From contig NW_021823798.1 in the NCBI RefSeq assembly GCF_006345805.1, positions 1-23,264 on the forward strand: a stretch of 23,264 nt of DNA, in the 5' to 3' direction. Source of the stretch: Octopus sinensis (taxonomy: Eukaryota). Below the pieces are notes generated by a model. The model was not told the origin of the DNA. It ran no database searches and worked only from the letters and a program-made list of their open reading frames with translations. Positions 4,083 to 19,012 of the stretch are shown here, in pieces. A program made the position numbers and the translations under genes. Each line of letters opens with the position of its first letter. Within the stretch, counting starts at the first letter, position 1.

Positions 4083-4454
4083 TTTGTCTCAAGGGCAGCC
4101 ATTTTGGGGAAGGGGATGAGTCGATTACATTGAACCAGTGTCTCACTGGTACTAAATCTATCGACCCCGAAAGGATGAAAGGCAAATTTGACCTCGGCGG
4201 AATTTGAACTCAGAACGTAAAGACAGACGATATACCTATTTCTTTACTACCCACAAGGGGCTAAACACAGAGAGGACAAACAGATTAAGTCGATTATATC
4301 GACCCCAGTGCGTAACGGTGCTTATTTAATCGGCCCCGAAAGGATGAAAGGCAAAGTCGACCTCGGCGGAATTTGAACTCAGAACGAAGCGGCAGACGAA
4401 ATACCGTTAAGCATTTCGCCCGGCGTGCTAACGTTTCTGCCAACTTACCGCCTT
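4083..4454 (-). mobile_element. SINE family A dimer: full copy (4237-4454) joined to a headless copy with a different tail (4083-4236)
   Basis: tRNA-like head (TGGCAGAAACGTTAGC A-box-like; GAGTTCAAATTCC B box) and central GCCTTTCATCCTTTCGGGG.CGAT domain. The B box and central domain are present twice. Flanked by (TAA)n on both sides. Confidence 0.9.
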
Positions 4455-4456
4455 AG

Positions 4457-4457
<1 letters not shown>

Positions 4458-4521
<64 letters not shown>
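4458..4521. repeat. (TAA)n microsatellite
   Basis: Perfect trinucleotide run abutting the SINE A head. Confidence 0.95.
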
Positions 4522-10222: not shown

Positions 10223-10937
10223 ACCGATGTTACCACCAAGCTACTTAAGTGTTTTTCTTGCTTTTAGTTCATAAAGTTTCTTAAAATACACAATTTCTCT
10301 GCAGATAAATTCAAGATATCATTGTCCAGAATGAATATAGACATTTATCTTAATATCACCCAGTATAAATTATTCAAACGTGTTACTAAACACTTGTACA
10401 TAGCAGTTTTTTTTTTACTATATTGCCACAAGCTCGTACATTCATTTTTACATATCGAAAACATACGGTTTATAGCACAACACAACTGGAATATTCAACC
10501 GTGCATTCAATAAAAAGTTGAGCATTTTAAATTGTTAGTTATTAATAGGTATTTACTACCAGCCAATTCATAAATATATTCTCATTTATATTTTTATCCG
10601 CCATTTCTTTCTGATTCTTAATAGATGAACGGCTTTTCGTTTTGTCTCTTCCTGCAGAATTTGCGGTAATCTAAATAACTATAAATATTGGATGAGTATT
10701 TTCCTTTCCTTTTTCTCTATTCCACCGACGAATATGAGGAGCTTCCTAAACATTATTAATGTCACGAGCAATTCTAATTAGATATTTATTTGAACATCTT
10801 ACAAGTATGTTTACGATGTTGTCGAGTATATTTAAATGAATAAGTGTATACACTAACATAATACATACATACATACGTACATATATGTATGTGTATGTAT
10901 ATATATATTATATATATATATATGTATATGTATGTAG

Positions 10938-10971
<34 letters not shown>

Positions 10972-10985
10972 ATATATATGTTGTA

Positions 10986-11023
10986 TCTTTCTGTTGAAGA
11001 GCGTAGGCTCGAAACGTTAAAGA
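10986..11023 (+). ncRNA. Minimal type I hammerhead-ribozyme-like motif (A6>U variant) in a Penelope-like cassette
   Basis: Stem I TCTTT/AAAGA; core CTGTTGA-A; stem II GAGC-GTAG-GCTC; GAAAC-GTT with palindromic ACGT stem III. It lies in a ~140-bp unique cassette flanked on both sides by (TA)n. Confidence 0.6.
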
Positions 11024-11158
11024 CTTGTTTTATTTATATTTCCTGAGCGCCATACTAATACAATTGTTCGTTTGTTTTCCACCTGCCTTCGTCTTTGTTT
11101 ATTTTCATAAAGCTTCCCGTTATATATATATATATATATAATATATATTATATATATA

Positions 11159-11200
<42 letters not shown>

Positions 11201-11407
11201 ATATATATATATATAGTATATATATTATATATATATATATAATAATATATATATATATAATATACACATATATACATATGCATATAATATATATATATAT
11301 ATATACATAGGTTAGAGAGAGTCCACCAATAATATTTCTATATTCATGTCATCGTTCGTATTTGAATACACAAAACTTTTATGTTTGTATGTCACTCATA
11401 ATAACCT

Positions 11408-18586: not shown

Positions 18587-18770
18587 TATATATATTATAT
18601 ATATATATATAAGGGCAAGCAATAGGTTGCTTAGCCACATACCGAAAAATTAGAAATAGTAGTCAAAGAGAGCATATTTCTATTTTCTACAAATATAATC
18701 CCACATACAACATGTGACTCACATATGTCAAACAGAAGGAAAGAATAACGAAAACAAAGTCTTTTGGGTA

Positions 18771-18830
18771 GTTACGGACGCGTTTTTGGATTAGAATTAT
18801 AAATCAATTCATTTCCTTCTTCAGCGTAAC
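18771..18830 (-). ncRNA. Minimal type I hammerhead-ribozyme-like motif (G12>A variant) in a Penelope-like cassette
   Basis: Minus strand GTTACG-CTGAAGA-A-GGA(aatGAATTgatttatAATTCtaa)TCC-A-AAAAC-GC-GTC-CGTAAC. It has a perfect 6-bp stem I, a CUGAAGA core, stem II, a palindromic ACGCGT stem III and a GUC site. The cassette sits between (TA)n and (TACA)n. Confidence 0.65.
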
Positions 18831-18917
18831 AGTCTACTTAAATAGGTTTTGCAAATGCTATACATACCTCCAGCTTCCCGAAGTAGCGTCATCGGAGATA
18901 GTAGGAGATAGCCAGCA

Positions 18918-19012
18918 CATATATATACACATACAAACATATATATATATATATACATACATACATATATACATACATACATATATACATACATATATAG
19001 ATACATACTTAC

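What the first reader, a model, noticed from the sequence alone, without database searches (positions are those of the whole stretch)
10981..11120. Second, unrelated hammerhead-like cassette cleanly embedded in (TA)n
Seen: a ~140-bp unique cassette is flanked on both sides by long (TA)n. It starts with TCTTT-CTGTTGA-A-GAGC(GTAG)GCTC-GAAAC-GTT-AAAGA (5-bp stem I, 4-bp stem II, ACGT palindrome) and continues into a T-rich tail. Only A6 of the core deviates. Its stems differ completely from the 18771 motif, so two independent families share the architecture. Inference: a short ribozyme-headed retroelement that targets TA microsatellites.
Basis: partly seen in the sequence, partly recalled or inferred. 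Interest (0 to 1): 0.7.

Follow-up and report, generated by a model that had tools for sequence, protein, structure and literature searches.

The report
Penelope element end, fixed A6U hammerhead
This 140-base insert between TA repeats is the cut-off tail of a 4.5-kb Penelope-type jumping gene, a known kind that carries a hammerhead (self-cutting RNA) motif; the unusual part is that one normally fixed core letter (A6) is U in about 22,000 related copies while the rest of the motif is kept, so it likely still cuts slowly, but cutting is untested.

Summary
The motif is real and correctly parsed, but the cassette is neither unique nor a short stand-alone element. It is the last 139 bases of a ~4.5-kb Penelope-like retrotransposon (reverse transcriptase plus GIY-YIG endonuclease, Neptune-type zinc finger): fixed 3' end at (TA)n, variable 5' truncation, partial-tandem pLTRs. 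Minimal hammerheads in pLTRs and (TA)n targeting are published. The unusual point: A6U is not decay. About 22,000 motifs carry U6; in 65 copies sampled without using the motif, position 6 is U in 64 and A in none, and only N7 and N17, the free positions of a hammerhead, vary among 37 columns against 48 of 99 flanking columns. So the motif is under selection. Cleavage is not shown: CUGA mutants are weak in published assays, there is no stem covariation inside the lineage, only 21 copies end at the predicted cut (control site 8), and no raw RNA reads were available. I found no paper on a natural U6 core, but could not read Lunse 2016. This scan noted the same U6 lineage before, on other DNA (e1-9559914, e1-9500873).

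The parts
10881..10979 (.). Left (TA)n-rich microsatellite: host target side of the 5' truncation junction
   Evidence: Tandem Repeats Finder; sequence
10982..11120 (+). 5'-truncated copy of a Penelope-like element: positions 4384-4521 of the 4,521-base unit read in L031 (3' end / pLTR)
   Evidence: blastn 95.7% to the L031 unit; 100% to seven other genomic copies over query 3-142
10986..11023 (+). Minimal type I hammerhead motif (stem I, CUGUUGA core, extra A, 4-bp stem II with GUAG loop, GAAAC, ACGU palindrome, GUU site)
   Evidence: fits the min-HHR consensus in the supplement of PMC4209133 except at position 6
10994..10994 (+). U6 in place of the conserved A6; the state of the whole lineage
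11018..11019 (+). Predicted cleavage site (GUU, then stem I); cleavage not shown
   Evidence: hammerhead numbering applied; weak genomic test
11024..11120 (+). T-rich 3' tail with blocks shared across subfamilies, ending at the fixed 3' boundary of the youngest subfamily
11121..11309 (.). Right (TA)n microsatellite: insertion target at the fixed 3' end

Best explanation
The cassette is the 5'-truncated 3' end of an abundant Neptune-type Penelope-like retrotransposon inserted in (TA)n, and its minimal hammerhead with a lineage-wide U6 is a motif kept by selection that likely still self-cleaves slowly, as a dimer or with help from the element's protein. Shown: the 4.5-kb unit with RT and GIY-YIG domains, the fixed 3' end at (TA)n, variable 5' ends, partial-tandem pLTRs, and U6 as the master state. 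Inferred from what is known of PLEs: the endonuclease nicks (TA)n, the nicked strand primes reverse transcription at the UAUAUA that follows the element's 3' end, and synthesis often stops early and rejoins the target at short AT microhomologies, which left this 139-base copy. Inferred and untested: U6 lets the core pair with the GAAAC-G strand so that the monomer is mostly off, and cutting is rare; most RNAs that get copied are intact across the site.
For: Element: L031 holds pLTR + unit; L082 has a 963-codon open frame with RVT_1 above the Pfam cut-off (31.7 bits against 29.6) and a weak GIY-YIG match (18.4 against 22.6), with DKG, YIDD, a CX4CxxC linker and CCHH residues; 16 of 20 full-ORF loci carry an upstream partial copy, 115 to 1,365 bases long (L073). 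Target: 75 of 93 against 151 of 2310. U6: 7,345 matches with N7=T, 99 of the first 100 with U6, 14,799 with U6 and N7=A/C/G against 66 for the reversed control; the 562 non-U6 copies with the same stem II are 67 C, 24 A, 9 G in the first 100 rows, a point-mutation spectrum (counted by eye). Selection: in 65 copies found by a tail anchor, 2 of 37 motif columns vary (N7, N17) against 48 of 99 flanking columns, Fisher p 8e-7; N17 was A or U in all 60 copies tallied; subfamily proteins have diverged to about 50-79% identity in the stretches seen. A related A6 family has stem I pair 4 swapped from C-G to G-C in 15 of 30 copies. Literature: natural A6C cleaves weakly (PMC3088659, PMC7151607); a PLE hammerhead is protein-assisted and uncut RNA is the main substrate (PMC11167929). 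21 copies end at the predicted cut against 8 at a control TA site.
Against: No cleavage data of any kind. Deep mutagenesis reports low activity for all single mutants of the CUGA region except the C3-G8 swap (PMC9901934). No compensatory change inside the U6 lineage, and the GUAG loop, free in catalysis, is as fixed as the core. The 21 cut-site copies are well under 1% of the youngest subfamily (roughly 3,900 by 16 of 30 times 7,345), the site has a TA microhomology, only one control site was counted, and another microhomology site took 3 of 93 sampled copies. None of 16 upstream pLTRs starts at the cut. The folding model favours inactive pairings over the active dimer (-13.7 against -20.4 kcal/mol for two monomers). 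Alignment columns and subfamilies are not independent, so the Fisher p value overstates the evidence.
Confidence: 0.52

Rival explanations
1. Same element, but the motif no longer cuts: the hammerhead-derived fold or sequence is kept because the element's protein (or a host factor) binds it, and A6U marks the loss of catalysis.
For: CUGA-region mutants are weak; HHR cleavage was dispensable for PLE insertion in vitro and no RNA reads ended at the site (PMC11167929); Naiads thrive without canonical HHRs (PMC8557442); loop 2 and both stems are fixed without covariation; templates were intact across the site; with U6 the model pairs G5 with C15.2 at probability 0.45-0.98, with A6 at most 0.10.
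Against: N7 takes all four bases although it would end that alternative helix; N17 is only A or U, as the NUH rule needs; the catalytic G8 and G12 are kept at 97-98%.
Confidence: 0.35
2. The block is conserved by chance or for a DNA-level or splicing reason (internal promoter, 3' splice site after the pyrimidine tract), and U6 was simply inherited from one successful master.
For: All U6 subfamilies can descend from one ancestor; a pyrimidine tract precedes the motif; PLE pLTRs hold promoters and introns.
Against: Only N7 and N17 vary in 37 columns while about half of the flanking columns do; the related A6 family keeps the same architecture with a swapped stem pair.
Confidence: 0.1
3. One reading: a short, independent, ribozyme-headed retroelement of about 140 bases with fixed ends.
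For: This copy and 3 of 30 others (L035, L041, L042) start within a few bases of each other just upstream of stem I.
Against: All 29 other top copies continue upstream, 8 of them past the 1,500 bases fetched; the sequence is the end of an ORF-bearing unit; truncation points are spread.
Confidence: 0.03

Closest known systems
Minimal type I hammerheads (min-HHR) in pLTRs of metazoan Penelope-like elements (Cervera and de la Pena 2014, PMC4209133)
   Same: [quoted passage not shown]
   Different: Position 6 is U across the lineage; the published consensus is CUGANGAH and every alignment row I saw in supplement part 2 has A6. Stem II is 4 bp with an invariant GUAG loop, shorter than the 7-8 bp of the schistosome families
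Neptune clade of Penelope-like elements (as described in Craig et al. 2021, PMC8557442)
   Same: RT followed by C-terminal GIY-YIG, DKG motif, long linker with CX2-5CxxC, CCHH finger, pLTR partial tandems, insertion bias to microsatellites
   Different: Clade placed by motifs and by eye against the paper's alignment, not by a tree; the hammerhead core is non-canonical; three motif strings of this lineage gave no hit in that paper's supplement
Natural A6C hammerhead of phage Bcep176 (Perreault 2011, PMC3088659; Naghdi 2020, PMC7151607)
   Same: A natural change at position 6 in an otherwise intact core; low but detectable activity, better with Mn2+
   Different: C rather than U, a single phage sequence rather than about 22,000 genomic copies over several subfamilies; activity was measured there and not here
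Poseidon element PAc of Anolis (Frangieh 2024, PMC11167929)
   Same: AT-rich target, pLTR-ORF tandem, hammerhead that is not needed for insertion in vitro; uncut RNA is the main template
   Different: Penelope/Poseidon clade, canonical core, hammerhead overlaps the ORF start, RT starts at a site not homologous to the target; here the 3' junction is TA on both template and target (priming by that match is inferred)
Non-LTR retrozymes (bioRxiv 10.64898/2026.07.22.740005)
   Same: Type I hammerhead, related to PLE pLTRs
   Different: Retrozymes are non-coding tandem repeats; this is a fragment of a coding element with no fixed 5' end

Membership tests
Penelope-like element (EN+) | Single ORF with RT and C-terminal GIY-YIG endonuclease | tested here: met
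   L082:1512-4400, 963 codons; RVT_1 above cut-off, GIY-YIG E 0.0028 below cut-off but motif residues present; 1,054 homologues at E<=1e-50 among 7,993 scored. The frame lacks its own start codon, so this copy is not shown intact
Penelope-like element (EN+) | Partial tandem forming pseudo-LTRs | tested here: met
   16 of 20 full-ORF loci have an upstream 3' copy joined head to tail; 1 more has a ~12-base remnant; 3 are truncated in the 5' region
Penelope-like element (EN+) | CCHH finger in the endonuclease | tested here: met
   CxxC at 871-877 between IIYCI and YIG, RFAEH at 892, RHF at 910
Penelope-like element (EN+) | Telomerase-sister RT by phylogeny | not tested
Neptune clade | Linker CX2-5CxxC zinc finger with a long spacer before GIY-YIG, RT N-terminal to EN | tested here: met
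   CSRPRCRTC at 830; spacing resembles the Neptune rows and not the Nematis rows of PMC8557442 Fig. S2, judged by eye; 97 of 101 homologues with a YIG motif keep the linker
Neptune clade | Branches with Neptune elements in an RT tree | not tested
   No reference set available as stored sequences
Minimal type I hammerhead (min-HHR) | Stems I and II, extra nucleotide after A9, G10.1-C11.1, palindromic 15.2-16.2, NUH | tested here: met
   against the consensus
Minimal type I hammerhead (min-HHR) | Core C3 U4 G5 A6 N7 G8 A9 ... G12 A13 A14 | tested here: not met
   Position 6 is U in 64 of 65 copies, A in 0; all other core positions 95-100%
Minimal type I hammerhead (min-HHR) | Covariation in stems | tested here: inconclusive
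   None inside the U6 lineage (60 copies); one C-G to G-C swap against the related A6 family, 15 of 30 copies
Minimal type I hammerhead (min-HHR) | Site-specific self-cleavage | not testable with these tools
   Needs an assay or raw reads; genomic proxy weak (21 against 8)
Non-LTR retrozyme or short non-autonomous element | Short non-coding unit with fixed ends, often tandem | tested here: not met
   5' ends vary from the tail to the full ORF

The most novel reading that the evidence does not exclude
A natural U6 hammerhead that works: the Penelope lineage fixed A6U so that the monomer locks itself into an off hairpin (core paired with the GAAAC-G strand) and cuts only when dimerised or opened by the element's own protein, a built-in switch kept through at least six subfamilies and about 22,000 copies, breaking the rule that A6 is required.
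Probability: 0.25. Interest if true: 0.68.

Novelty: new variant of a known kind. Interest (0 to 1): 0.42.

Why it matters
The element class, its pLTR hammerhead and its (TA)n targeting are known. What the hammerhead does for Penelope elements is still open (PMC8557442, PMC11167929). A lineage that changed a conserved core base yet kept every other constrained position gives a natural test: if it cuts, the core consensus used in ribozyme searches is too narrow and tens of thousands of motifs are being missed; if it does not, PLE hammerheads can be kept for a non-catalytic job. A related family in the same genome with canonical A6 and the same stem II is a ready control.

Tried and rejected
Rfam scan of the window: no hammerhead family among 71 weak matches. 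Single-strand folding of the 140-mer: no signal (z +0.76). Sequencing runs: no RNA holder listed on record, only assembled contigs; laying contigs of 4 + 4 runs showed no place where many molecules begin or end and no GT..AG joint, which contigs cannot be expected to show, so this says nothing on expression, cleavage, circles or splicing. Idea that full-length copies start at the upstream cut: 0 of 16. Idea of an A6 subfamily hidden among copies with the GUAG loop: rejected, C6 outnumbers A6 67 to 24. Idea that upstream pLTR lengths separate a circular from a linear template: lengths run from about 115 to 1,365 bases with none longer among 16 (two of them likely the same insertion on duplicate contigs); a hint for a linear template, too few to decide. 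My first window scans missed the 18771 motif as a full hit because that copy reads AAAAAC where relatives read AGAAAC. Search for an ORF upstream of the 18771 family in four loci found none in the 600 bases read. Lunse et al. 2016 (PMC5785218) is not held; file 1 of the PMC4209133 supplement could not be searched and I read only part 2 of 3 of file 2; either may bear on whether U6 cores are already in print. PMC11014351 passages gave nothing on A6U. Look-up of earlier findings by sequence gave nothing.

Full report
Observation. The window has (TA)n-rich runs at 10881-10979 and 11121-11309 around a 140-base insert. It is the only site in the window that passed a type I scan allowing one core mismatch. 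Rfam has no hammerhead hit here and the fold alone is unremarkable.

It is a repeat, and the end of something longer. A search of the own genome gave 590 candidates; the 40 scored are 97-100% identical. In the 30 fetched loci the right end is the same and is followed by TA, while all 29 other copies continue to the left, 8 of them past the 1,500 bases fetched. That sample was chosen by the query, so I also used samples in genome order: 5' ends are spread from inside the tail to beyond 1.5 kb. L031 shows a whole unit of 4,521 bases preceded by a partial copy of its own 3' end; the window insert is positions 4384-4521 of that unit.

The element is a Penelope-like retrotransposon. L082 has a 963-codon open frame with RVT_1 above the Pfam cut-off and a weak GIY-YIG match; it carries DKG, YIDD, a CX4CxxC linker and the CCHH residues. 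It has 1,054 homologues at E<=1e-50 among 7,993 scored, the best at 51-57% identity, the few named ones from a shark, snails, corals and a sea urchin. Of 20 loci with the full ORF, 16 have an upstream partial copy (15 joined by exactly TATATATT), 1 a remnant and 3 are truncated in the 5' region; upstream copies measure about 115 to 1,365 bases. Domain order and the long linker fit the Neptune clade as described in PMC8557442 (seen: passages, introduction, supplement part 54 of 59); this was judged by motif, without a tree.

Targeting. Using a tail motif that does not include the hammerhead (19,920 matches, control 8) I examined 93 copies from the first rows of chromosome C1. TATATA follows the 3' end in 75 of 93, against 151 of 2,310 background windows. 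(TA)n preference of linker-bearing PLEs is in print (PMC8557442). That the nicked target primes on the UAUAUA after the element's end is my inference.

The hammerhead architecture is the published one. PMC4209133 (seen: abstract, main text parts 1-2 of 4, supplement file 2 part 2 of 3) describes minimal hammerheads in pLTRs with a short stem I, an extra base after A9, G10.1-C11.1 and a palindrome in place of helix III, mostly as single motifs in truncated PLEs, weakly active as dimers. Its consensus is CUGANGAH; this motif fits except at position 6.

A6U is the lineage state. The pattern with N7=T and any base at 6 has 7,345 matches, 99 of the first 100 with U6 and 74 in all with A6. U6 with N7=A, C or G adds 14,799 (control 66). 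Copies with the same stem II and a non-U base at 6 number 562; the first 100 are 67 C, 24 A, 9 G by my count, as expected from point mutation. By eye the lineage holds at least six subfamilies with different tails, and their ORF fragments are about 50-79% identical to P0001 for the older ones. Of the 93 tail-anchored copies, 21 had no recognisable motif (mostly truncated 3' of it or inside it, three with internal deletions) and 7 truncated at its 5' side were dropped, leaving 65. In these, position 6 is T in 64 and a gap in 1; of 37 columns from stem I to stem I only N7 and N17 have a second base at 10% or more, against 48 of 99 flanking columns (Fisher p 8e-7; columns are not independent). 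Contigs of four runs under four organism labels list variants at N7 and N17 and none at position 6 at a 5% share. N7 and N17 are the positions a hammerhead leaves free (established knowledge; consensus quoted in PMC7151607).

Does it cut? For: the pattern above; N17 is A or U in 60 of 60; a natural A6C hammerhead cleaves weakly and better in Mn2+ (PMC3088659 passages; PMC7151607 part 1 of 4); a PLE hammerhead needs the element's protein (PMC11167929 parts 1-2 of 4); 21 copies of the youngest subfamily begin at the predicted cut against 8 at a control site with the same TA microhomology. Against: mutants of the CUGA region were all weak in deep mutagenesis (PMC9901934 passages); there is no covariation inside the lineage and the GUAG loop is as fixed as the core; cut-site copies are well under 1% and other microhomology sites are used as often or more (8 of 44 distinct loci at the cut by my count, about 5 at a site 14 bases on; 3 of 93 at one tail site); no upstream pLTR starts at the cut; the energy model prefers inactive pairings. 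With U6 the model pairs G5 with C15.2 (probability 0.45-0.98, at most 0.10 with A6), a possible off state, but the related A6 family also folds into an off state in another register. A fold kept for protein binding would leave much the same conservation pattern, so I put slow cleavage at about 0.5 and a non-catalytic role at about 0.35.

A natural control. The same genome has 7,990 matches (control 130) to a canonical-core pattern; most of the 30 fetched are a related family with the same stem II, a 3-base loop, homologous tail blocks, TA at the 3' end and stem I pair 4 swapped. Most of its copies are about 200 bases; one shows an endonuclease fragment at 42%.

The 18771 motif. It lies on the minus strand (18830-18771), in a 307-base insert of a different and older family (1,042 candidates, 79-92% identity over the full length) with a common TA-flanked 3' end and variable 5' end, and no similarity to this element over the insert.

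Novelty. Element, ribozyme class and target are known. A natural U6 core was not found in searches (0 papers; 37 papers, 25 listed, none on this by title or abstract) and 76, nor as motif strings in the PMC8557442 supplement. Lunse et al. 2016, on PLE hammerhead variants, I saw only as a reference title, so the claim is limited. The bioRxiv retrozyme preprint was read in part 1 of 5, PMC6765202 and PMC11014351 as passages. After I had formed this reading, the scan's own notes showed the same fixed A6U lineage from another piece of this genome and from another genome; they are not independent support. Verdict: new variant of a known kind, interest 0.42.

Noticed in passing
window 18612-18918, minus strand (motif 18830-18771): 3' end of a second, older (TA)n-flanked family with a type I hammerhead (6-bp stem I, long stem II with internal loop, ACGCGU palindrome, GUC site). 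Relatives have an extra A before GAAAC and mixed cores (CTGAAGA, CCGAAGA, TTGATGA, CTGAGAA); several show fold-back or tandem copies. No ORF found yet.
   Followed up: partly
L123-L152: Related family with canonical A6, the same stem II and a 3-base loop; most copies are about 200 bases and start at nearly the same place about 75-85 bases upstream of the core, either a strong truncation hotspot or a non-autonomous derivative.
   Followed up: partly
L263-L268, L073-L092: Upstream pLTRs do not exceed about 1,365 bases in 16 full-ORF loci; a possible limit set by the template's 5' end. L264 and L267 (and L078, L086) look like the same insertion on duplicate contigs.
   Followed up: partly
unit position 4312 (L012, L017, L020, L047, L054, L067): Recurrent 5' truncation point about 80 bases upstream of the core at an AT microhomology, at a similar distance to the common start of the A6 family.
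   Followed up: no
L011:964-1639 (oriented): Two 3' ends joined through about 260 bases of the 5' region with the ORF deleted: a short non-coding tandem that could seed a retrozyme-like derivative.
   Followed up: no
G000:C2:131812455, C1:200698061, C3:164116529: 5' junctions with short re-copied pieces of the element's tail, suggesting template jumps by the reverse transcriptase before joining the target.
   Followed up: no
L190, L212, L228: Copies with internal deletions that remove part or all of the hammerhead.
   Followed up: no
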